Below the pieces are notes generated by a model, which made no database searches, was not told where the DNA came from, and was given only the letters and a program-made list of their open reading frames with translations. Below are positions 1 through 12,701 of a DNA stretch of 12,701 nt, one piece after another. Origin of the DNA: a virus (lineage: Duplodnaviria; Heunggongvirae; Uroviricota; Caudoviricetes); IMG/VR virus record IMGVR_UViG_2526164599_000005; one strand, 5' to 3'. A program made the position numbers and the translations under genes. Numbering within the stretch: the first letter of the stretch is position 1; every line of letters begins with the position of its first letter.

Positions 1-294
1 CTTTAAGGAGTTCATTTTCCAACGTTTTTTGCCGAGCAGGCGCTGGAGTTCTTTAATCTGCTTCATGGCAGCAGCAAGTTCAGAGGCAGGAACGACCTGC
101 TCTCCTGCGGCCACAGCAGTAAGACTTCCCTCCTGGTATTGCTTGCGCCAGAGAAATAACTGGCTGGCTGCCACACCGTGTTGCCGGGCAACAAGGGAGA
201 CCGTCATTCCCGGTTCAAAACTCTGCTGAACAATAGCGATCTTTTCCTGTGTAGTACGCCGTCTGCGTTTCTCCGGTCCTAAGACATCAATCAT
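1..294 (-). CDS. insC: IS2 transposase OrfA (InsC), 3' end outside window; apparent 1-nt frameshift in the A-run at 25-30
   Basis: Minus-strand translation from ATG (plus 292-294): [90 protein letters not shown]..., matching InsC as I remember it. After GKK the conserved continuation (K)TLENELLK is only in the neighbouring frame. Confidence 0.8.
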
Positions 295-385
295 CTGCTC
301 TCCAATGACTAGTCTAAAAACTAGTATTAAGACTATCACTTATTTAAGTGATATTGGTTGTCTGGAGATTCAGGGGGCCAGTCTA
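1..385 (-). mobile_element. IS2 (IS3 family), partial; left end with terminal inverted repeat, remainder lies beyond the window start
   Basis: Reverse complement of 301-385 reads TAGACTGGCCCCCTGAATCTCCAGACAACCAATATCACTTAAATAAGTGATAGTCTTAATACTAGTTTTTAGACTAGTCATTGGA, which matches my recollection of the IS2 left end; insC follows directly. Terminus placed at 385. Confidence 0.8.
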
Positions 386-560
386 GTCAGCAATGAAATC
401 ACGCAGACCGTCAATAAGAAACTGGAAAACCAGAGTGCGGCAATTCAGCAGATACAGAAGGTTCAGGTTGATACAAATAATAACCTGAACAGCATGTGGG
501 CTGTGAAGCTGCAGCAGATGCAGGACGGACGCCTTTATATCGCGGGTATTGGTGCCGGTA
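386..560 (+). pseudogene. J: Internal fragment of phage host-specificity / central tail fibre gene J, isolated between two IS insertions
   Basis: Open frame VSNEITQTVNKKLENQSAAIQQIQKVQVDTNNNLNSMWAVKLQQMQDGRLYIAGIGAG; joins in frame to 3261-4032 once the IS66-family element and one TSD copy are removed. Confidence 0.65.
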
Positions 561-590
561 GTAAGCGGCTCGTCAGAACCGTATTGATAT

Positions 591-2164
591 TTACTGAGAG
601 CTCAGATCAACTTTCCAGGGCAACAGATCGCGTACCCGGTTTGCCGGCCAGTCCTGGATATGTTCAATGACGTAGCGCAGCCACTTTCTGGTCTCCACCA
701 TTGTTCAGACGGCATGTGCCGATCAGCGAGTACAACACCGCCGCATGTTCACCACCGCTGTCGGAACCCGCGAACATCCAGTTTTTCCGGCCTACGGCCA
801 CTCCCCGTAAGGCGTTCTCTGCGATGTTGTTGTCGATTTCCACCCAGCCATTACTGCAGTACACGTTCAGTGCATCCCACTGTTTCAGCAGGTATGCGAA
901 CGCTTTTGCCGTATCTGAGTGACGCGACAGTGTTTTCATCTGTTGCTGTATCCAGTCATACAGTGACTGCATCAGTGGCGCGGCTCTGGTTTTTCTTGCC
1001 GCCAGACGCTGTTCTGCTGAACAGCCCCGGACCTCTGCCTCGATGGCATACAGTTCACCGATACGCTGCAGGGCTTCCGTGGTGATGTCGGTGGGCGCTC
1101 TTGCATGCACATCGTGGATTTTTTCTCCGGGCATGAGCCATACACGCGGCTTCCGTTATTCTGCCGGATTCGTATAACGCCCGGTAACCACCGTAAGCAT
1201 CGGCCTGAAGCACACCGCTGTAACCGGCCAGGTGATTTTGTGGATGGATACCTTTCCGGTCCGGACTGTACGCGAACCAGACCGCCGGGGGCATCTGTGA
1301 ACCGGCGTTACGGTCATCACGGACGTAGACCCACAGCCGGGCTGTCCGGGTTTTACCGCTGCCCGGCTCCTGGACCGGGACGGGGATATCATCAGCATGG
1401 ACTTTACCGGGCATCAGCACATACTGGCGCAGGACGTCATACAGCGGCTCCAGTAGTTCAGCAACGGCACCTGTCCAGCGCCCCAGTGTGGCACGGCTCA
1501 GCTCCACACCCTGACGGCGGTATATCTCTGACTGGCGGTATAACGGCAGATGGTCTGCATATTTTCCGGTGACGACATGGGCCAGGAGCCCCGCTCCGGC
1601 ATAACTGCGTGCAATGGGTTTTGAAGGTACTGGTGCCTGCACGATATGGTCGCACCGACAACAGGCCAGTTTCGGACGTTGTGTTTCGATAACCTTAAAG
1701 GCGCTGCTGATAAGCTCCAGTTGCTCTGACACATCACATCCCAGAGAACTGAGTTCACCACCACAGGCAGGACAGCATTCCTCTTCCGGCCGGATAACCC
1801 GGGTTTCACGGGGAAGTGAGGCCGGTAACGGTTTACGGGCTGAAGACTGGCGCAGGGCGGATGGCAGTACCGGGTCATATTGCTCACCCAGCGTTTCCGC
1901 CATTTCTTCCTGAAGTGCGCTGATTCGCTCCTGTGCTTCCTGTATCTGCCGTTCGGTTTTTGCACGAAGTTTTTCTGAGCTTTTACCGAACTGCATACGT
2001 TGCAGTTTCGCAACCAGCGCCTTCAGCCGGTTGATTTCGGAAGCATAAGCCGCCACCCGCTGTGAGAGCAGGCGGTTGTATTCAGCCATCTGGCGTATGG
2101 TGTCCTGTTGCGTCTGCAACAGTGCCCGCAGGCGGGCGTTCTCATGAGCAAGTGAGGTGTCCAT
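591..2164 (-). CDS. tnpC: IS66-family transposase TnpC, reading frame broken by two single-nucleotide frameshifts (possibly pseudogene)
   Basis: ORF pieces 1055-2164 ([17 protein letters not shown]...MAHARRK) and 664-1134 (...[29 protein letters not shown]...[46 protein letters not shown]), plus a third-frame tail [35 protein letters not shown] ending at stop 591-593. Frame changes fall at T6 (1119-1124) and near 695-703. Confidence 0.85.
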
Positions 2165-2183
2165 ATCCTCACTTTACAACGGG

Positions 2184-2531
2184 TTATATGCGGATTCCAG
2201 CGCGTTCCGTTCGTTTCGGGTGCTTCCAGTTGATACCTTCAAGAAGCATGGATAACTGAGCCGGAGTAAGGTGCACCTTGCCGTCACGGGTGACTGGCCA
2301 GACGAAGCGGCCCCGCTCCAGGCGTTTGGTGAAGAGGCACAGTCCGTCACTGTCAGCCCACAACACTTTTATCTGGTCACCCCGGCGTCCGCGGAAGATG
2401 AACAGGTGTCCGGAGAACGGGTCATCCTTCAGGACGTTCTGAACTTTTGATGCCAGGCCGTTAAAGCCATTTCGCATATCGGTGATACCTGCAACCAGCC
2501 AGATACGCGAACCTGCAGGGAGAGATATCAT
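2184..2531 (-). CDS. tnpB: IS66-family TnpB (Orf2), intact
   Basis: 115-aa [96 protein letters not shown]... typical IS66 Orf2; its ATG overlaps the tnpA stop (ATGA overlap). Confidence 0.9.
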   Translation of the reverse strand: MISLPAGSRIWLVAGITDMRNGFNGLASKVQNVLKDDPFSGHLFIFRGRRGDQIKVLWADSDGLCLFTKRLERGRFVWPVTRDGKVHLTPAQLSMLLEGINWKHPKRTERAGIRI

Positions 2532-3207
2532 CAGTGGCTGCTCCCTTTTATTTCGCGGATAAGTGTCTGTAATAACGCCGGCGTCAGTTTACCTTTAAGC
2601 CTGAGAGTTCCGGCCGGCAGAACCAGCTCACAACACAGACTGTCGGACGGTGTATTTATCTGCTCTGGTTCCTGTGCGGGGGCCGGGATTTTATTATCCG
2701 GCTCCGGCGTTAACGTCACGGGAAGCAGTGCCGGCATATTTTTCCGGAAGGCAGCAGGCCACCTTTCCGGTATTGATGGCGCCAGTTGAAGAGCAGGTTA
2801 TCGTTGATTCCGTTTTCCCGGGCGATCTGCGCCACACAGGCTCCGGGCTGCAGTGACTGCTCCACTAAGGCGATTTTAAACTCATAAGGGAAGTTGGGCC
2901 GCCGGGGACGTTTTTTTACCACGGGGGCTTCGGATATAACGGTGCTTTCAGGACGTACGACTGGTACCGTGGAAAATTGTCCGTAAAGGCAGGCATCAAG
3001 TTCCTGCTCCGACATGCCTGCGGGCAAAGGCCACGAAAGGCCAGCTCTCCGAAAGCGCACGAACATACTACAAACTGTTGATTTTGGTACACCCAGGCGA
3101 CGCCCGGCCACAACCCGGGGTAAATGTTCTTCAAAGTGAAGACGTAAAGCTTCAGTGATCCAGGTCCGGTGTTTCATACGATAGTGTCCATTAAAAATGA
3201 TGGACAT
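2531..3207 (-). CDS. tnpA: IS66-family TnpA (Orf1) with one apparent frameshift and an unusually long N-terminal extension; start codon uncertain (3207 or 3177)
   Basis: ORF 2716-3207 contains the IS66 Orf1 HTH core [53 protein letters not shown]; ORF 2531-2737 gives the expected C-terminal part [11 protein letters not shown]...[29 protein letters not shown]. They are joined by a frame change at the T5 run 2739-2743. Confidence 0.7.
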
Positions 3208-3260
3208 TATTTTTGTAGAGCCGGAGGAAACAGACCAGACGGTTTAAATGAGCCGGTTAC

Positions 3261-4032
3261 TGCCGGTATTGAGAACACCCCTGACGGCATGCAGAGTCAG
3301 GTGCTGCTGGCGGCGGACAGGATTGCGATGGTTAATCCTGCGAATGGCAACACAAAACCGATGTTTGTTGGTCAGGGCGATCAGATATTCATGAACGACG
3401 TGTTCCTGAAACGCCTGACGGCCCCCACCATTACCAGCGGTGGAAATCCACCGGCATTTTCCCTGACTCCGGACGGAAAGCTGACCGCTAAAAATGCGGA
3501 TATCAGTGGCAGTGTGAATGCGAACGCCGGGACGCTCAACAATGTCACGGTAAATGAAAACTGTACGATTAAGGGCATGCTGGAGGCGACTCAGGTCAGA
3601 GGTGACTTCGTTAAAGCTGTATCCAAATCATTCCCGAAACAGGCTGGTACGTGGGGTAACACGGAAACACCAAACGGGACGGTTACAGTCACCATAAGCG
3701 ATGATCATAACTTTGACCGTCAAATCATTATTCCGCCCATTATCTTTAACGGAATAGCGTATAGCGATCCGGGAAGTGGTAATAACCCGGGAGGTACAAG
3801 ATACACGGGTTATGGTTTTGAAGTTCGCAAAAACGGTGTATTAATCGCATCCAGAGAAACTAAAGGGGCTATTCCCGGTAGCTACAGTGCGGTTATTGAT
3901 ATGCCGAGTGGCAGGGGAAGCGTCACTCTGGAGTTTAAGGTTTTCCATAAAGGCAATCAGTGGGCAGGTAATATCACCGACTGTACGGTGATTGTGACCA
4001 AAAAAGCCGCTTCCGGCATCAGTATTCGTTGA
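3261..4032 (+). pseudogene. J: C-terminal (receptor-binding) fragment of phage host-specificity protein J, severed from its 5' part by the IS insertions
   Basis: [86 protein letters not shown]...[10 protein letters not shown] resembles the lambda J C-terminus as I recall it; position directly upstream of lom fits. Confidence 0.85.
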
Positions 4033-4765: not shown

Positions 4766-7700
4766 ATGGCAGTAAAGATTTCAGGTGTACTGAAAGACGG
4801 CACAGGAAAACCGGTACAGAACTGCACAATCCAGCTGAAAGCAAAACGTAACAGCACCACGGTGGTGGTGAACACGCTGGCCTCAGAAAATCCGGATGAA
4901 GCCGGGCGTTACAGCATGGACGTTGAGTACGGTCAGTACAGCGTTATTCTGTTGGTGGAAGGCTTCCCGCCGTCACATGCCGGGACCATCACCGTGTATG
5001 AAGATTCCCGACCCGGTACGCTGAATGATTTTCTCGGTGCCATGACGGAGGATGATGCCCGTCCGGAGGCACTGCGCCGTTTTGAACTGATGGTGGAAGA
5101 GGTGGCGCGTAACGCGTCCGCAGTGGCACAGAACACGGCAGCCGCGAAGAAGTCAGCCAGTGATGCCAGCACATCTGCCCGTGAGGCGGCAACCCATGCA
5201 ACCGATGCTGCAGGCTCAGCACGTGCCGCCAGCACGTCAGCCGGACAGGCTGCATCATCTGCTCAGTCAGCATCTTCCAGCGCAGGAACGGCATCAACAA
5301 AGGCCAGTGAAGCATCGAAAAGTGCTGCTGCTGCAGAGTCCTCAAAAAGCGCGGCAGCTACCAGTGCCAGTGCCGCGAAAACGTCAGAAACGAATGCGGC
5401 AGCGTCACAAAAATCTGCAGCCACTTCTGCATCCGCCGCGACCACGAAGGCGTCAGAAGCTGCCACCTCAGCCCGGGATGCGGCGGCCTCAAAAGAGGCA
5501 GCGAAATCATCAGAAACGAACGCATCATCAAGCGCCAGTAGTGCAGCTTCCTCGGCAACGGCGGCAGGAAATTCCGCGAAGGCGGCAAAGACGTCTGAGA
5601 CAAACGCTAAGTCTTCTGAGACGGCAGCGGAACAGAGTGCCTCCGCAGCAGCAGACTCAAAAACAGCGGCTGCATCATCTGCCAGCGCCGCGTCAACAAG
5701 TGCCGGGCAGGCCTCAGCCAGTGCCACCGCCGCCGGAAAGTCGGCAGAAAGTGCCGCATCGTCTGCTTCAACAGCCACAACGAAGGCTGGCGAAGCCACT
5801 GAACAGGCCAGCGCAGCAGCGAGTTCTGCTTCCGCAGCGAAGACATCCGAAACGAACGCGAAAGCGTCGGAAACCCGTGCAGAATCCTCAAAAACGGCTG
5901 CCGCATCGTCAGCCAGTTCGGCGGCGTCATCGGCATCATCTGCGTCTGCTTCAAAAGATGAGGCGACCAGACAAGCGTCAGCAGCGAAGAGCAGCGCCAC
6001 GACGGCATCCACGAAGGCGACAGAGGCAGCTGGCAGTGCGACGGCGGCAGCACAGAGCAAAAGTACGGCGGAATCCGCGGCAACGCGCGCCGAGACAGCG
6101 GCAAAACGGGCAGAGGATATTGCATCCGCCGTGGCGCTTGAGGATGCGAGCACGACGAAAAAGGGGGTAGTACAGCTCAGCAGTGCGACCAACAGTACGT
6201 CTGAAACGCTGGCGGCAACGCCAAAGGCAGTAAAATCAGCCTATGACAATGCAGAGAAACGTCTGCAGAAAGACCAGAACGGCGCTGATATACCCGATAA
6301 GGGACACTTCCTGAACAACATTAACGCGGTCAGTAAAACAGACTTTGCTGATAAGCGCGGTATGCGTTATGTGCGGGTTAATGCTCCTGCAGGTGCAACA
6401 TCTGGAAAATATTACCCTGTTGTTGTTATGCGTTCTGCTGGCTCAGTAAGCGAACTGGCATCAAGGGTCATTATCACCACGGCAACGCGAACCGCAGGCG
6501 ATCCGATGAATAACTGCGAGTTTAACGGATTTGTTATGCCTGGTGGCTGGACTGACAGGGGGCGTTATGCTTATGGCATGTTCTGGCAATATCAAAACAA
6601 TGAACGAGCCATCCACTCAATAATGATGAGTAATAAGGGCGATGATTTGCGCTCTGTGTTCTATGTTGATGGCGCTGCTTTCCCTGTTTTTGCGTTTATC
6701 GAAGATGGCCTGTCAATATCCGCACCTGGTGCTGATCTCGTTGTTAATGATACGACCTATAAGTTTGGGGCAACAAATCCGGCGACTGAATGTATCGCGG
6801 CGGACGTTGTCCTTGATTTTAAGAGTGGGCGTGGTTTTTATGAGTCTCATTCGTTAATCGTTAACGATAACTTGTCGTGCAAAAAACTTTTTGCCACAGA
6901 CGAAATTGTAGCGCGTGGTGGTAATCAGATTCGAATGATAGGTGGGGAGTATGGTGCATTATGGCGTAATGATGGCGCTAAAACTTACCTGCTGCTTACC
7001 AATCAAGGTGATGTTTATGGTGGCTGGAATACATTAAGACCGTTTGCTATTGATAACGCAACCGGCGAACTGATTATTGGAACCAAACTGTCCGCAAGTC
7101 TGAACGGTAATGCATTAACAGCAACAAAGCTGCAAACGCCAAGACTGGTTTCTGGTGTTGAGTTTGATGGTTCCAAAGATATTACTTTAACCGCTGCGCA
7201 TGTGGCTGCTTTTGCCAGAAGGGCAACTGATACATATGCCGATGCGGATGGTGGCGTTCCCTGGAATGCCGAATCAGGCGCTTACAATGTCACCCGCTCT
7301 GGCGACAGCTATATTCTGGTTAACTTCTATACCGGAGTCGGAAGTTGCCGGACCCTGCAGATGAAGGCGCATTACAGAAATGGAGGTCTGTTCTACCGTT
7401 CCTCAAGAGATGGCTATGGTTTTGAGGAAGACTGGGCAGAAGTTTATACCTCGAAAAATCTTCCACCAGAAAGCTACCCAGTCGGCGCACCAATCCCGTG
7501 GCCATCAGATACCGTTCCGTCTGGCTATGCCCTGATGCAGGGGCAGACTTTTGACAAATCTGCATACCCGAAACTTGCAGTGGCTTATCCGTCAGGCGTT
7601 ATTCCTGATATGCGTGGCTGGACGATTAAGGGCAAACCTGCCAGTGGTCGTGCCGTATTGTCTCAGGAACAGGACGGCATTAAATCGCACACCCACAGCG

Positions 7701-8745: not shown

Positions 8746-8827
8746 ATTCGTAATGATTACCTAAATACGTTATTCTTTTGCTCAAAAAGTGATTTTGCTA
8801 TAGGTAGAGAGTATGTTCTTGGATTAA

Positions 8828-8861
8828 GAATAAAAAATCGCCATGAAAGAGCTTCATGGCG
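8828..8861 (-). terminator. Candidate rho-independent terminator for a minus-strand transcript converging on tfa
   Basis: Plus strand has 9-bp stem CGCCATGAA (8839-8847), loop AGAGC, TTCATGGCG (8853-8861), preceded by TAAAAAAT (8831-8838); on the minus strand the hairpin is followed by ATTTTTTATTCTT. Confidence 0.45.
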
Positions 8862-9331
8862 AGTACATAAACGGTACAAAATATGATGAAAGTAGAGCGG
8901 CGTAAGCCACTATATTAAGATATGACAATAGCGAAGAAAAGTAAATAACATTTTATGGACGTTTAATTGTTAATTATAAAAACTAGAGTGCCCGATATTG
9001 TTTATCTTGCTTTAAAATAATGTACTCAAACCAAATTTTTGAGCTAAAAGCTCAAATAATATAAATGCAATGATAATGTTTAATAAGACAATTAGCTTGC
9101 TTTGTATTTTCATTTCGGAATACTGTTAAGTAACTTTGATGACCCTAACAATAGATCGGAATTTTCTTAGAGTCAATGGTCACTGTATTTGCTTGCAAAG
9201 CAAATGTTTTGGTGGTTATAAGTTTTCTTAATATAGTCACCTATGCAACTTGTTCCGTGTGGAGATTAAAGGTTAAAATTTAATGCGAAGATGGAATTAT
9301 ATTATATTTTTATAATTAATTTAACCTTAAC

Positions 9332-9432
9332 ATCGTTGCTGGCGGCATGGAAGAAATATCGGGTCTTGCTGATGTCGTGTTGGCACTTCCTTAGTGCCGG
9401 ATATCGAAAGGCCAGCTGTACCTGTGGGGTGA
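9332..9432 (+). repeat. Degenerate direct copy of the tfa 3' end (remnant 1, non-coding scar)
   Basis: ATCGTTGCTGGCGGCATGGAAGAAATATCGGGTCTTGCTGA...CCGGATATCGAAAGGCCAG...GGGGTGA aligns to tfa 8647-8745 (CTCGTTGCTGGAAGCCTGGAAGAAGTATCGGGTGTTGCTGA...CCGGATATTGAATGGCCAG...AGGGTAA). Roughly three-quarters identity by eye, with indels and an internal stop. Confidence 0.7.
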
Positions 9433-9564
9433 AAACTTTATATGGATGCTATTTTTATAATAGCTGGTAAAAACTGGCCGAACTGAAATTCACTGTTGAT
9501 AAAAAAGATGTGTTTGAGTGTATGTCATTGTTTTCTTAATGGAATCCACTAGAATACAGCGAAT

Positions 9565-9762
9565 TTAAGAAGGTGGATTTTTATTGGAATATAAACTACA
9601 ATAATGCTCAACTCGTTCGTAGAATTGTTTTTTCTTATTTCTTGGAATGCTAACTATTATATGCATTATGGGGGCGATACTTCCTGATAATTTACATGAT
9701 GCATACATTGAAGCAATAAATTCAATATCATTGTCATCAAAGTTAAAGCTTTCTCCGTTCAT
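9565..9762 (-). CDS. Hypothetical small protein (65 aa), unrecognised
   Basis: ORF MNGESFNFDDNDIEFIASMYASCKLSGSIAPIMHIIVSIPRNKKKQFYERVEHYCSLYSNKNPPS; minus-strand context TAAGGAATTGAAATG gives an AAGGA Shine-Dalgarno 6 nt before the ATG. AT-rich, so a chance ORF is possible. Confidence 0.3.
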   Translation of the reverse strand: MNGESFNFDDNDIEFIASMYASCKLSGSIAPIMHIIVSIPRNKKKQFYERVEHYCSLYSNKNPPS

Positions 9763-10087
9763 TTCAATTCCTTATGTGTTTGACACAACTGATGCTGTAT
9801 CCCATGAGAATTTATGCAAGTTGTTATGTTTGATTTGATATTGCAATGATAATTGTAGCTAATTGTTTTCAATTGAGTGAAAGTTTATTTCGAGTGATTA
9901 AGTCGAAAAAAAAGATTTCTCACGGTTAGTAAGCGTATTAGGTCAGTATTCAGATATGAATGGTATTAATGACTAAATTTTCAATCATATATGGATTTTT
10001 ATGCTGATGAAGGTGTTTTATTTGGCGATTCGTCAAGCATCTTCACTTAAGTAATCGTATATTTTAAGAGTGCAAAAGAGAAAGGGA

Positions 10088-10190
10088 CAACGTTGCTCGC
10101 ACTCTGGATTAAATATAGGGTATTGTTAAACTTCGTTGATACATAATTGTACCGGATATTGAGTGGTCTGAAGTCCCAGTCATTAAGTAA
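10088..10190 (+). repeat. Second, more diverged and AT-shifted direct copy of the tfa 3' end (remnant 2)
   Basis: ACGTTGCTCGCACTCTGGATTAAATATAGGGTATTGTTAAACTTCGTTGATACATAA...CCGGATATTGAGTGGTCTGAAGTCCCAGTCATTAAGTAA; translation TLLALWIKYRVLLNFVDT* / PDIEWSEVPVIK* parallels tfa [20 protein letters not shown] / [11 protein letters not shown]. Confidence 0.6.
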
Positions 10191-10538
10191 TTGTTTCGTG
10201 ATATGCTGCAGAAACGTTGTATGCAATAACGTTCTGCGGTTGGCTGGTGAACTTTCGATAGTGCGGGTATTGAATGATTTCCAGCCGTTACCGATTTTAT
10301 ATAACTGCAGTGGAATTATTCAACACACAGGCAAAACGGAATAAGCTGAGAAAAAAGCGTGCTTTCCCAATCTGGGGCAAATCACTTCTGAATGACACCT
10401 GAAAACAGGTGGTGGACTCAAGAAGGCTTGGAATATTCTTCTTTAATGTTATGTAATTCATTGATTTTTCGTGTACGATTTTAAGACATTTATTCCAAGA
10501 AAAATTTTTAACTCTTTGATTTTTCGACTCTGTATCAT

Positions 10539-10600
10539 CGGTCTCGAAAACCGGAGTAGGGGCAACTCTACCGGGGGTTCAAATCCCCCTCTCTCCGCCA
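10539..10600 (+). other. 3' fragment (about 62 nt, anticodon stem to CCA) of tRNA-Ser(CGA); attR-type core repeat, not a functional tRNA
   Basis: CGGTCTCGAAAACCGGAGTAGGGGCAACTCTACCGGGGGTTCAAATCCCCCTCTCTCCGCCA matches the 3' part of E. coli serU as I recall it (anticodon loop CTCGAAA, long variable arm, T-arm GGGGGTTCAAATCCCCC). No complementary 5' acceptor strand upstream. Confidence 0.75.
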
Positions 10601-11184
10601 CTTTATCAATGACTTATCTCCCGACTTCCCGCCTTGCTTTTCCTAAACAGAACAATCGTAGAATATTCTTGAAGGGTTAGATCGTCACTGTTTTCTGTTC
10701 GATACTGTGACATTCAGCACTTGATTCACTATGGATCTGACAGGAAGGTTTTGAGCGAAAATTTGCAGTTATTCAGTCGTTTTCTTATCGGTCACCATTA
10801 TTCTTTTAGACATTGATCCTACAAAGCTGCCGCAAAGTTGGTGGTGGGAACTGAAGTTGCGTAGAGAAGGGGTCAATACCCGGAGGCAAACATGGGCTGG
10901 CAAAAGTGTAGCGGTATTAGGCGCAGCTATTTAGCCTAGTTATGTTTTATGAAAACTTGATATCATATAAGTGTCTTACTTATTGGCTGTAAATAAGTTT
11001 TTCCTAAGGAATTGTTTCTTGAGTATCATTTGTAACTGTAACGGAATTTATAATCCTTTGCTTTATTGTTACGGTATTTTTTATCACACCCTATTTTTTA
11101 TGTGGTTTTTTATACTGAAGTTTGGCAAAGTGAACTTTATATGCATATACTTCATCCTGGTTTCAGTTAAGTTGGGTGGATGAT

Positions 11185-11928
11185 ATGGCAACTACATGTT
11201 CAGTTATATTGATTTTGGAGTCCTTTGATGTTTATTTCGGAAAAGAGAGTGTGTTTCTAGAGAAAGGTTCATCTGTACTTGTCGACTCTAGCTCTAGAGA
11301 TTTTTTCCTGACATATCCTGAAAGAGTGATAGTGGCGGATTTTGGCGCTGAGTTTATTAGTCGCTATTTGAAAGCTAATAACTTAAGGGATATTTCTGAT
11401 TGTAGGGAATATCCATCTTATTTAAAAATAAACTTTGCTGACTTCAGTTTAATTAAAGGATTAATTAGTTGGGCTAATCACTGTGCTGAATACATAGAAA
11501 TTTTTGATGAGTCTATTGCTTTTACATGTCTCTCTGCATTTTCTTCTGAAAAACAATTTGGAGTATTTCTGTTTGAATGTTTGAAAAGCACAGAGGCTAA
11601 AGTTAAAACGATTATTCATACGGATTTATCTGCACCATGGCGTCTTAAGGATATATCATCAAGATTATATCTCAGCGAAAGTTTACTAAAGAGGAAATTG
11701 AAAGAAGAGGGGGTATCATTCAGTAAGATCATACTTGATGAGAGGATGCAAATGGCTGAATATTTACTCAGCACTCGTTGTTATCCTATTAGTAAAGTAG
11801 CTAAGGTCTGTGGTTATGCCAGTGTCTCATACTTTACTTATGTATTTAGACGTTATTTTGGTGTTTCTCCAAGTCAATACTCTCAGAGGAGTTCAGAAAG
11901 TAAAATTCTTACTCACCAGGGAATCTGA
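11185..11928 (+). CDS. AraC/XylS-family transcriptional regulator, YdeO/AppY/EnvY-like (horizontally acquired type); 247 aa from ATG 11185 (ORF track starts at GTG 11176)
   Basis: C-terminal dual-HTH region WRLKDISSRLYLSESLLKRKLKEEGVSFSKIILDERMQMAEYLLSTRCYPISKVAKVCGYASVSYFTYVFRRYFGVSPSQY resembles YdeO/AppY as I recall them; N-terminus TCSVILILESFD resembles their CSV(V/I)FI motif; GGTGGA SD-like sequence 4 nt upstream; very AT-rich. Confidence 0.85.
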   Translation: MATTCSVILILESFDVYFGKESVFLEKGSSVLVDSSSRDFFLTYPERVIVADFGAEFISRYLKANNLRDISDCREYPSYLKINFADFSLIKGLISWANHCAEYIEIFDESIAFTCLSAFSSEKQFGVFLFECLKSTEAKVKTIIHTDLSAPWRLKDISSRLYLSESLLKRKLKEEGVSFSKIILDERMQMAEYLLSTRCYPISKVAKVCGYASVSYFTYVFRRYFGVSPSQYSQRSSESKILTHQGI

Positions 11929-12422
11929 TCATTGTTCTTGCCCCCTTATTTCCAGACAGGGGGTGTATCTTAAGTTAACGTTACCCGCTGACGTCGATAT
12001 TCTCGCGGAGAGCGATAACCCAACGCACTGTGCGGATGGTTTTCATTGTAATGATCGATCGCCACTGCAAGATTATGCAATGCCGTTCTTACATTCGGTT
12101 TCGGCATGAACGCGATGTAGTCTTCCTTCATCGTTTTCACGAACCTTTCTGCCATTCCATTACTCTGAGGACTGCTGATTGCCGTTGTGCAGGGCTCCAG
12201 ATTCAACTCTCTGGCGAACTGCCATGTTTCATGCGCTCTATACGCTGAACCGTTATCTGTCAGCCACTGGATGGACTGTTCCGGTACTTTATCGCCAAAG
12301 CGTTTTTCTATCGCTCCTAACATGACATCCTGCACTGTCGCTTTATCGTAACCTCCCGTGCTTGCGGCCCAGTCTATGGCTTCACGATCGCAACAGTCCA
12401 GGGCGAACGTAACACGCAGTTT
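11929..12422 (-). mobile_element. Remnant of an IS2-like element (right end plus 3' part of insD), 5'-truncated by another IS
   Basis: 11929-11975 resembles the IS2 right terminal region (…TTGCCCCC…ATTTCCAGACA…CTTAAG…CCCGCTG…); contains the insD-like C-terminal ORF. Terminus is within about 5 nt of the regulator stop codon. Confidence 0.7.
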
Positions 12423-12437
12423 TGAATCGCCACGGGT
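11970..12437 (-). pseudogene. IS2-like transposase OrfB (InsD-like, integrase core), C-terminal fragment only
   Basis: Minus-strand translation ...[108 protein letters not shown]...[14 protein letters not shown] parallels IS2 InsD (...[42 protein letters not shown]...). An upstream in-frame stop at 12438-12440 shows the N-terminal two-thirds are missing. Confidence 0.75.
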
Positions 12438-12701
12438 TTAACAGACACCTCAGAGTCATTTAAGATGGCTTAAAGAGAGGTGCCCATGAGCGGTAAGCGT
12501 TATCCCGAAGAGTTTAAAACTGAAGCAGTCAAACAGGTTGTTGATCGCGGTTATTCTGTTGCCAGCGTTGCAACACGTCTCGATATCACCACCCACAGCC
12601 TTTATGCCTGGATAAAGAAGTACGGTCCGGATTACTCCACTTTTTCATCAAGCCAATCCGCCCACCACTGCATCATTTCTCTGCGCTTATCGAGATACTG
12701 A
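12423..12701 (+). mobile_element. Left end of a different IS3-family element (terminal TGA..., then orfA); extent to the right uncertain
   Basis: Begins TGAATCGCCACGGGTTTAACAGACACCTCAGAG exactly where insD-like homology stops; followed by an SD (AGAGAGG) and an IS3-type OrfA. Confidence 0.5.
12486..12701 (+). CDS. IS3-family transposase OrfA (HTH), probably truncated or disrupted after about residue 50
   Basis: MSGKRYPEEFKTEAVKQVVDRGYSVASVATRLDITTHSLYAWIKKYGPD is a typical IS3-family OrfA N-terminus; the following residues (YSTFSSSQSAHHCIISLRLSRY*) lack the usual leucine-zipper character. Confidence 0.6.
   Translation: MSGKRYPEEFKTEAVKQVVDRGYSVASVATRLDITTHSLYAWIKKYGPDYSTFSSSQSAHHCIISLRLSRY

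What the first reader, a model, noticed from the sequence alone, without database searches (positions are those of the whole stretch)
10930..11933. Orphan YdeO/AppY-like AraC regulator in very AT-rich DNA, with an IS terminus directly at its stop codon
The 247-aa protein has the dual-HTH C-terminal domain of the AppY/EnvY/YdeO group, whose members are often prophage- or island-borne and regulate acid-resistance or secretion genes. It sits alone, with no target operon visible in the window, in strongly AT-rich DNA behind a 250-nt AT-rich leader, which suggests H-NS-silenced foreign DNA. The IS2-like terminus begins within about 5 nt of its TGA stop (11926-11928), so the native 3' end or downstream partner genes may have been removed by the insertion.
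Basis: partly seen in the sequence, partly recalled or inferred. Interest (0 to 1): 0.6.

Follow-up and report, generated by a model that had tools for sequence, protein, structure and literature searches.

The report
patE, a known prophage acid-resistance regulator
The gene is an intact copy of patE, an already characterised prophage-borne AraC-type activator of the E. coli acid-resistance genes, and the insertion-sequence fragment next to its stop codon is an old scar that leaves the protein complete, so the finding is ordinary.

Summary
A 247-aa AraC/XylS-family ORF (11185-11928) lies in 35% GC DNA, and the end of an IS2-group element (ISEc48, partial) starts at 11933, 4 nt after the TGA.

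The protein is 244/247 identical to ECs_0287 of Sakai prophage Sp1 and to the identical EDL933 protein. That is the only AraC-type gene of that thrW prophage (O-island 8), where reviews place PatE (z0321). PatE activates gadE, gadBC and hdeAB and lowers LEE expression.

A 1.87-kb module (10538-12406) is 99.1% identical to Sakai Sp1. It comprises a serU tRNA 3' fragment, 278 bp of serU-yodB host DNA, an IS630-family end, patE and the ISEc48 fragment. Here it sits in the b-region of a defective lambdoid prophage at att-lambda.

The C-terminus is native. Homologues of 78-84% identity with no IS have the same length, and one has the same TGA position. They lie between phage Q and the holin gene, so no partner operon was lost, only the 3' UTR.

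Identity is 37% to PsrA/PsrB, 35% to YdeO and 29% to AppY. patE is present in 645 of 5426 complete E. coli genomes.

Verdict: already known, low interest.

The parts
10219..10538 (+). Phage-side arm of the attR of a serU-integrating lambdoid prophage; context, left edge of the mosaic.
   Evidence: 96% blastn match to strain E2863, running from after nleC up to the serU fragment next to yodB.
10539..10600 (+). 3' 62 nt of tRNA-Ser (serU). A fragment, not a gene.
   Evidence: 100% match to the annotated tRNA-Ser next to mtfA/yodB in nearly all E. coli genomes. ARAGORN finds no tRNA in the window.
10601..10878 (+). Captured host DNA: the serU-yodB intergenic region.
   Evidence: 97% identity to the native chromosomal locus (L008 6001-6340).
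10879..10935 (+). Right-end fragment of an IS630-family element (ISEc33-like). It marks the left boundary of the patE cassette.
   Evidence: 93-98% matches to the 3' end of IS630-family elements in about 600 genomes.
10936..11184 (+). patE upstream region, 29% GC. From 10941 it is homologous to the Q-to-araC intergenic region of lambdoid prophages.
   Evidence: blastn to L005 from 5752, which is the last codons of Q; alignment; GC.
11122..11151 (+). Promoter-like site TTGGCA-18 nt-TATACT (10 of 12 matches), followed by a Shine-Dalgarno-like GGGTGGA at 11174-11180.
   Evidence: Consensus scan. The same site is found in L005 and the block is almost invariant across window, Sakai, L005 and L006. 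Function is inferred, not shown.
11185..11928 (+). patE coding sequence: 247 aa, an AraC/XylS-family activator. The dual-HTH domain is residues 161-238 (nt 11665-11898).
   Evidence: Pfam. 244/247 identical to Sakai ECs_0287 and the identical EDL933 WP_000246059.1, differing at R27K, G131E and G137E. dN/dS is 0.16-0.33 against the 78-84% homologues.
11929..11932 (+). 4-nt spacer (TCAT) between the native stop codon and the IS end.
   Evidence: Alignments.
11933..12432 (-). 500-bp right-end fragment of ISEc48 (IS3 family, IS2-like). It carries only the C-terminal part of the transposase (rve domain; ORF 11970-12335).
   Evidence: 96.6% identity to a full ISEc48 copy (L007). Pfam rve_3/rve. Sakai curated repeat_region. 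Present after patE in every high-identity locus inspected.
12416..12641 (+). Fragment of a second IS3-family element, holding the N-terminal part of orfA (ORF from 12480).
   Evidence: Pfam HTH_Tnp_1. 97-98% matches annotated 'IS3 family transposase'. RefSeq calls it 'transposase, partial'.

Best explanation
The ORF is an intact allele of patE, the prophage-encoded AraC-like regulator characterised in EHEC EDL933.

**How it most likely works.** The protein binds DNA through its C-terminal double helix-turn-helix. It acts in trans on distant chromosomal promoters: hdeAB directly, and gadE and gadBC of the glutamate-dependent acid-resistance island. This raises acid resistance. In LEE-positive strains it secondarily lowers type III secretion gene expression. 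The absence of a neighbouring target operon is therefore expected.

**Expression.** It is probably transcribed from its own conserved sigma-70-like promoter about 35 nt upstream of the ATG (inferred).

**Context.** The gene sits in the cargo (b) region of a defective lambdoid prophage at att-lambda. It is part of a 1.87-kb mosaic module bounded by IS remnants, and that module has moved between prophages.

**The IS.** The ISEc48 fragment abutting the stop codon is an old, fixed junction. It replaced the 3' UTR but not any coding sequence.
For: **Shown here**
- 98.8% identity over all 247 residues to Sakai ECs_0287 (Sp1) and to the identical EDL933 protein in the thrW prophage. That is the only AraC-type gene annotated there.
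- 99.1% nucleotide identity over 1869 bp, including both flanks.
- Pfam AraC HTH domains above their cut-offs.
- Full-length resemblance to YdeO and GadW, with the shared N-terminal CSVI motif.
- IS-free homologues of the same length, one with the same stop position.
- dN/dS of 0.16-0.33 against those homologues.
- A conserved promoter-like site and Shine-Dalgarno-like sequence.
- The att-lambda attR lies 225 bp beyond the window end, so the module is inside the prophage.

**From the literature**
- PatE is z0321 on OI-8. It activates gadB, gadC, gadE and hdeAB, acts on hdeA promoter positions -132 to -45, and lowers six LEE genes (review PMC10877973).
Against: - No experiment was done on this allele. 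It differs from the studied EDL933 protein at three N-terminal-domain residues (R27K, G131E, G137E).
- Among near-identical patE alleles, nonsynonymous changes outnumber synonymous ones (3:1 and 8:2). The counts are too small to interpret but are compatible with relaxed constraint.
- The native 3' UTR and terminator are gone.
- The equation ECs_0287 = z0321 rests on position and uniqueness in the thrW prophage plus my own knowledge that Sp1 = CP-933H = OI-8. The primary PatE paper was not available.
Confidence: 0.88

Rival explanations
1. The gene is a silent or decaying passenger. It would be xenogeneically silenced AT-rich cargo in a defective prophage, deprived of its terminator by the IS, and contribute nothing to this host.
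For: - The prophage is defective: an IS66-family element disrupts gpJ.
- The cassette is bracketed by IS debris.
- GC is 29-35%.
- Near-identical alleles show as many or more nonsynonymous than synonymous changes.
Against: - The ORF is intact here and in every locus inspected, and patE is present in 645 of 5426 complete genomes.
- The promoter-like site and Shine-Dalgarno-like sequence are conserved.
- Purifying selection is clear against the 78-84% homologues.
- The EDL933 copy sits in the same IS-flanked context, and a patE mutant there has a phenotype according to the review.
Confidence: 0.08
2. It is primarily a phage life-cycle regulator, controlling late or lysis genes rather than host genes. 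The argument is that its relatives sit between the antiterminator Q and the holin.
For: - The 78-84% homologues lie directly between Q and the holin. The 52-53% homologues lie just upstream of the holin, with two other genes separating them from Q.
- PsrA and PsrB lie just downstream of the antiterminator region, before tRNA genes.
- In L005 a terminator-like hairpin follows Q and another follows the araC gene.
Against: - This position is the classic moron slot, the same as stx, for host-directed cargo.
- In this window and in Sakai the gene is detached from any phage late genes yet is kept intact.
- Published targets of PatE, PsrA/B and AppY are host acid-resistance genes.
Confidence: 0.03
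3. It is a truncated or chimeric protein whose C-terminal tail or stop codon is supplied by the IS.
For: The IS end lies only 4 nt from the stop. Rare database variants of 306-308 aa read through into the IS after frameshifts.
Against: - The IS begins at 11933, after the TGA at 11926-11928.
- L006, which has no IS, has ...ATCTGA at the same position and also encodes 247 aa.
- L005 stops three codons earlier.
- All family members are 237-249 aa.
Confidence: 0.01

Closest known systems
PatE (Z0321 / ECs_0287; prophage CP-933H = Sp1, O-island 8, of E. coli O157:H7)
   Same: 244/247 residues are identical. The upstream 650 bp is the same (serU fragment, serU-yodB DNA, IS630 end, promoter region), and the same ISEc48 fragment lies 4 nt after the stop.
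   Different: Three substitutions in the N-terminal domain (R27K, G131E, G137E). The host prophage and attachment site differ: a lambdoid prophage at att-lambda (ybhC/ybhB side) rather than the thrW remnant.
Unnamed PatE-like regulators in the Q-holin moron slot of lambdoid prophages (P0007 at 84%, P0008 at 78%; P0011-P0019 at 52-55%)
   Same: Same length (243-247 aa), same N-terminal CSVI motif, and a conserved promoter-like block in the 78-84% pair. All are in the moron slot upstream of the holin.
   Different: They sit inside an intact late region, with a terminator-like hairpin downstream in L005, and have no IS. The patE cassette is cut out of that context at the end of Q (10941) and at the stop codon.
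PsrA (ECs1087, Sp4) and PsrB (OI-57) of O157:H7
   Same: Prophage-borne AraC-like regulators reported to induce gadE and hdeA and to repress type III secretion. They share the same domain layout and N-terminal motif.
   Different: Only 37% identity. They are 237 aa and lie next to the ileZ-argN-argO tRNA genes.
YdeO, GadW, GadX (chromosomal acid-resistance AraC regulators of E. coli K-12)
   Same: Full-length similarity to YdeO (35%) and GadW (33%), and C-terminal similarity to GadX (35%). They act in the same regulatory circuit.
   Different: Scores are far below the NCBIfam equivalog cut-offs (149 against 348 for YdeO; 112 against 500 for GadX). Those genes are core-genome, not prophage cargo.
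AppY (DLP12 prophage, K-12)
   Same: An AraC-like regulator at the right end of a defective lambdoid prophage, after tail-fibre-assembly remnants. It is reported to boost acid resistance and to be H-NS controlled.
   Different: 29% identity.

Membership tests
AraC/XylS family transcription factors | C-terminal domain with two helix-turn-helix motifs (Pfam HTH_18 / HTH_AraC above the gathering score) | tested here: met
   HTH_AraC 60.7 bits (cut-off 26.6) and HTH_18 58.4 bits (cut-off 33.6), on residues 161-238.
PatE (Z0321/ECs_0287) orthologue | Near-identity over the full length to the O157:H7 protein | tested here: met
   244/247 identical to Sakai ECs_0287 and to the identical EDL933 WP_000246059.1.
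PatE (Z0321/ECs_0287) orthologue | Shared flanking DNA, showing the same locus rather than a paralogue | tested here: met
   99.1% identity over 1869 bp, window 10538-12406 against Sakai Sp1 13457-15323 of L004.
PatE (Z0321/ECs_0287) orthologue | ECs_0287 really is the gene published as patE (z0321, OI-8) | tested here: inconclusive
   The review gives z0321 on OI-8. ECs_0287 and its EDL933 twin are the only AraC-type genes in the thrW prophage. The primary paper and the Z-numbered record were not available.
PatE (Z0321/ECs_0287) orthologue | Activates gadE, gadBC and hdeAB and raises acid resistance | not testable with these tools
   Reported for the EDL933 protein only.
YdeO (NCBIfam NF007407 equivalog) | Score at or above the curated cut-off of 348 bits | tested here: not met
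   149.2 bits, although the alignment is full length, 1-235 against 1-233 of 253. 35% identity.
GadX (NCBIfam NF007432 equivalog) | Score at or above the curated cut-off of 500 bits | tested here: not met
   112 bits, C-terminal half only.
PsrA/PsrB group | High identity to ECs1087 or the OI-57 protein, which are 90.7% identical to each other | tested here: not met
   37% identity to both.
AppY | High identity to K-12 b0564 | tested here: not met
   29% identity over 232 aligned residues.
ISEc48 (IS3 family, IS2-like) | Terminal sequence and body match a full-length copy | tested here: met
   96.6% identity over 500 bp, starting at the 5'-TG end at 11933. Curated as 'ISEc48 partial' in Sakai.
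ISEc48 (IS3 family, IS2-like) | Complete element with both ends and an intact transposase | tested here: not met
   Only the right-hand 500 bp is present, and the transposase ORF lacks its N-terminus.

The most novel reading that the evidence does not exclude
The 1.87-kb patE module may be a fossil of a specialised-transduction-like capture. In this reading, a serU-integrated lambdoid phage excised aberrantly and took with it 340 bp of host DNA (the serU 3' end plus serU-yodB spacer) together with an IS-flanked patE cassette. That cassette had earlier been cut out of the Q-holin late-operon slot. The module then spread by recombination into prophages at thrW (O157 Sp1), at att-lambda (this window) and near paoABCD. 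A corollary is that ancestral patE-like genes were, like stx, also driven by the Q-dependent late promoter, which would couple acid-resistance regulation to prophage induction.
Probability: 0.35. Interest if true: 0.3.

Novelty: already known. Interest (0 to 1): 0.12.

Why it matters
There is little new biology here. PatE and its role in switching on the glutamate-dependent acid-resistance system in EHEC are published, and the gene is routinely annotated as an AraC-family regulator.

Three modest points are useful:
- patE is not restricted to O157. It is in about 12% of complete E. coli genomes, including commensal, avian and ETEC strains, and always with the same ISEc48 scar.
- The IS did not damage the protein, so annotation pipelines and readers need not treat it as truncated.
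- The module carries a piece of the serU-yodB chromosome. This documents how a regulatory moron was excised from a phage late operon and passed between prophages at different attachment sites.

Tried and rejected
**Sources that were not available**
- The primary PatE and PsrB papers (PMC3416394, PMC4288888) are not held.
- The Z-numbered EDL933 record NC_002655.2 is not in the collection.
- As a result, the link from ECs_0287 to z0321 rests on reviews and on position.

**Looking for psrA**
- I looked in the potB-site prophage of EDL933 (OI-50), as the reviews state. tblastn found no AraC-like gene in 80 kb.
- This was resolved through PMC13502914, which names psrA = ecs1087 in Sakai Sp4.

**Leads that went nowhere**
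- ARAGORN and Rfam were run on the tRNA-like stretch. ARAGORN called no tRNA. Rfam gave only a sub-threshold hit to a plastid 3' UTR family on the opposite strand, which I take to reflect a tRNA-like fold. The stretch was then identified by BLAST as the serU 3' end.
- The sub-threshold Rfam IS009 hits at 9317-9392 and 9957-10148 were not pursued.

**Readings rejected**
- The stop codon being supplied by the IS.
- The 70-aa upstream ORF 10971-11183 as a real gene. It has no family evidence, and it appears only fused to patE in rare variants that lack a short stretch at the junction.
- The GTG at 11176 as the start codon, because RefSeq and the Shine-Dalgarno spacing favour the ATG at 11185.

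**Not attempted**
- Structure prediction, judged unnecessary at 99% identity to a named protein.

Full report

- An ORF runs from 11185 (ATG) to the TGA at 11926-11928 and encodes 247 aa. The mechanical ORF list starts it at an in-frame GTG at 11176. RefSeq annotations of identical loci use the ATG, and GGGTGGA lies 5 nt upstream of it.
- Pfam finds both AraC-family HTH models well above their gathering scores on residues 161-238.
- The region is very AT-rich: GC is 0.347 for the gene and 0.293 for the 250 nt upstream, against 0.529 for the phage structural genes.
- In such DNA a 264-codon stop-free run is far beyond chance. In 2000 shuffles the mean was 71 codons and the maximum 166.
- The end of an IS3-family element lies right after the stop. 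Identity with a full-length ISEc48 copy begins exactly at 11933 (5'-TGTTCTTGCCCCC), leaving four bases (TCAT) after the TGA.

**2. What is it?** It is patE.

- The protein is 244/247 identical to ECs_0287 of prophage Sp1 of E. coli O157:H7 Sakai. The EDL933 protein at the same place (WP_000246059.1) is identical to the Sakai one.
- In both strains this is the only AraC-type gene in the small lambdoid remnant at thrW. Reviews place PatE (z0321) on O-island 8. That Sp1 = CP-933H = OI-8 is my own knowledge; the primary paper and the Z-numbered record could not be read.
- The match is not limited to the gene. Window 10538-12406 is 99.1% identical to Sakai Sp1 over 1869 bp, and Sakai's curated annotation shows the same 'ISEc48 Family: IS3 partial' starting 4 nt after the stop.
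- The three substitutions (R27K, G131E, G137E) all lie in the N-terminal domain.

**3. Anatomy of the surroundings**

The window is the right end of a lambdoid prophage integrated at att-lambda. In genomes with an almost identical right end, the IS debris is followed by ybhB and bioA. An att-lambda core with a lambda-like P arm (ACTTTTTTATACTAACTTGAGCG) lies 225 bp past the window end. The patE module is therefore inside the prophage, in the b-region cargo position.

The prophage is defective, because an IS66-family element splits gpJ.

The segment around patE is a mosaic:

| Window coordinates | What it is |
|---|---|
| 10219-10538 | Phage-side arm of the attR of a serU-integrating lambdoid phage |
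| 10539-10600 | Last 62 nt of tRNA-Ser serU |
| 10601-10878 | Native serU-yodB intergenic DNA, 97% identity |
| 10879-10935 | Right end of an IS630-family element |
| 10941-11928 | patE cassette |
| 11933-12432 | 500 bp of ISEc48 |
| 12416-12641 | Piece of another IS3-family element |

The junction between patE and ISEc48 is present in every high-identity patE locus I inspected. These were at att-lambda, at thrW and next to paoABCD.

**4. Was the gene damaged by the IS?** No.

- The closest relatives without an IS are P0007 (84% identity, 244 aa) and P0008 (78%, 247 aa). They lie directly between the antiterminator Q and the holin of lambdoid prophages.
- In the DNA alignment, P0008's gene ends ...ATCTGA at exactly the same position as the window gene. 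Similarity stops right after the stop codon.
- More distant relatives (52-55%) are 243-245 aa and lie just upstream of the holin, with two other genes between them and Q.
- The rare 306-308-aa database variants arise in two ways. Some are frameshift read-throughs into the IS. One (P0001) is an N-terminal fusion with the upstream 70-aa ORF.
- What the IS did remove is the 3' untranslated region. In L005 a terminator-like hairpin (GCCAGCATTATTGCTGG followed by a T run) lies about 60 nt after the stop, and it has no counterpart here.
- The ancestral downstream neighbour is the lysis cassette, not a target operon.

**5. How it most likely works**

By orthology with PatE, the protein is a trans-acting activator. 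It binds the hdeA promoter and switches on gadE, gadBC and hdeAB, which raises acid resistance. In LEE-positive strains it lowers expression of several LEE genes (review). This step is inferred for the present allele.

The whole-length similarity to YdeO (35%) and GadW (33%), which act on the same circuit, fits this.

A promoter-like TTGGCA-18-TATACT at 11122-11151 and the Shine-Dalgarno-like sequence are almost invariant between the window, Sakai and the 78-84% homologues, while the DNA further upstream diverges. I therefore take the gene to have its own promoter about 35 nt before the ATG. This is an inference.

dN/dS against the 78-84% homologues is 0.16-0.33, so the family is under purifying selection. 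Among near-identical patE alleles the few differences are mostly nonsynonymous, but the counts (4-10) are too small to interpret.

H-NS silencing is plausible from composition and by analogy with AppY, but it could not be tested.

**6. Comparison with known regulators**

| Regulator | Identity to the window protein |
|---|---|
| PatE (Sakai ECs_0287, EDL933 twin) | 98.8% |
| PsrA (Sakai ECs1087) and PsrB (EDL933 OI-57) | 37% each |
| YdeO | 35% |
| GadX | 35%, C-terminal part only |
| GadW | 33% |
| AppY | 29% |

- PsrA is named psrA in PMC13502914. Extended to its 237-aa ORF, it is 90.7% identical to PsrB, which matches the published 90% figure.
- The NCBIfam equivalog models for YdeO and GadX are matched far below their cut-offs, so the protein is not a member of those orthologous groups.

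**7. Distribution**

At least 80% of 10860-11932 is present at about 98% identity or more in 645 of 5426 complete E. coli genomes. These include O157:H7 and bovine, avian, porcine and human non-O157 isolates.

**8. Verdict**

- The element is an already known gene in a known kind of context.
- The only mildly new point is the natural history of the module: host serU-yodB DNA and an IS-bracketed moron carried between prophages at different attachment sites.
- Interest is low.

Noticed in passing
window 29-3207 (also 305-670 and 3169-4032): An IS66-family element (ISCro1-like by the RefSeq names of matching loci) is inserted in the tail-tip gene gpJ. Its main transposase gene is split into two ORFs (1055-2164 and 664-1134, minus strand), so the IS looks frameshifted and the prophage is tail-defective.
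   Followed up: partly
window 10539-10878: A piece of core chromosome (the last 62 nt of tRNA-Ser serU plus 278 bp of the serU-yodB spacer) sits inside a prophage integrated at att-lambda. The same piece sits in Sakai Sp1 at thrW. It looks like a fossil of aberrant excision of a serU-integrated phage, or of recombination between prophages.
   Followed up: yes
window 10879-10935: A 57-nt remnant of the right end of an IS630-family (ISEc33-like) element sits exactly where homology to the phage Q gene would otherwise continue. patE is therefore bracketed by two unrelated IS ends.
   Followed up: yes
window 8746-10538: A 33% GC stretch between the tail-fibre-assembly gene and the serU attR. It holds degenerate tfa remnants (ORF 9291-9470; weak matches to the K-12 DLP12 tfaD/tfaX region upstream of appY), sub-threshold Rfam IS009 hits at 9317-9392 and 9957-10148, and an unannotated-function 65-aa ORF (9565-9762, minus strand; WP_001438255.1; no Pfam hit).
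   Followed up: partly
window 5150-6200: The Ala/Ser/Thr-rich repeat segment of the tail-fibre gene (GC about 0.60) produces long ORFs in other frames and on the opposite strand (5160-6170 plus strand, 5263-6192 minus strand). These are almost certainly artefacts of codon periodicity.
   Followed up: no
L014 and L015 (EDL933 1.62-1.70 Mb) and L019:18678-19391 (Sakai Sp4): Two reviews place psrA = z1789 on OI-50, but tblastn finds no AraC-like gene in the potB-site prophage of the EDL933 CP008957 assembly. A 2026 paper names psrA = ecs1087 in Sakai Sp4. ECs_1087 is annotated as 195 aa, but the ORF extends to 237 aa starting MVVVCSVIMV, which matches the family N-terminus and is 90.7% identical to PsrB.
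   Followed up: partly
L005:5729-5835 and 6798-6815; L006:51-204: In the IS-free homologous loci, a promoter-like site overlaps the end of Q and a strong hairpin with a T run follows it. This could be a PR'/tR'-like pair. Another terminator-like hairpin follows the araC homologue. L006 carries tRNA-Met and tRNA-Lys upstream. The araC homologues thus occupy the same slot as stx genes in Stx phages.
   Followed up: partly
L022:16382-17457 (EDL933/Sakai Sp2, next to Sp1): The P4-like element immediately after the O157 patE locus carries genes that RefSeq names 'ABC-three component system' proteins. This is a candidate anti-phage defence cargo and is unrelated to the finding.
   Followed up: no
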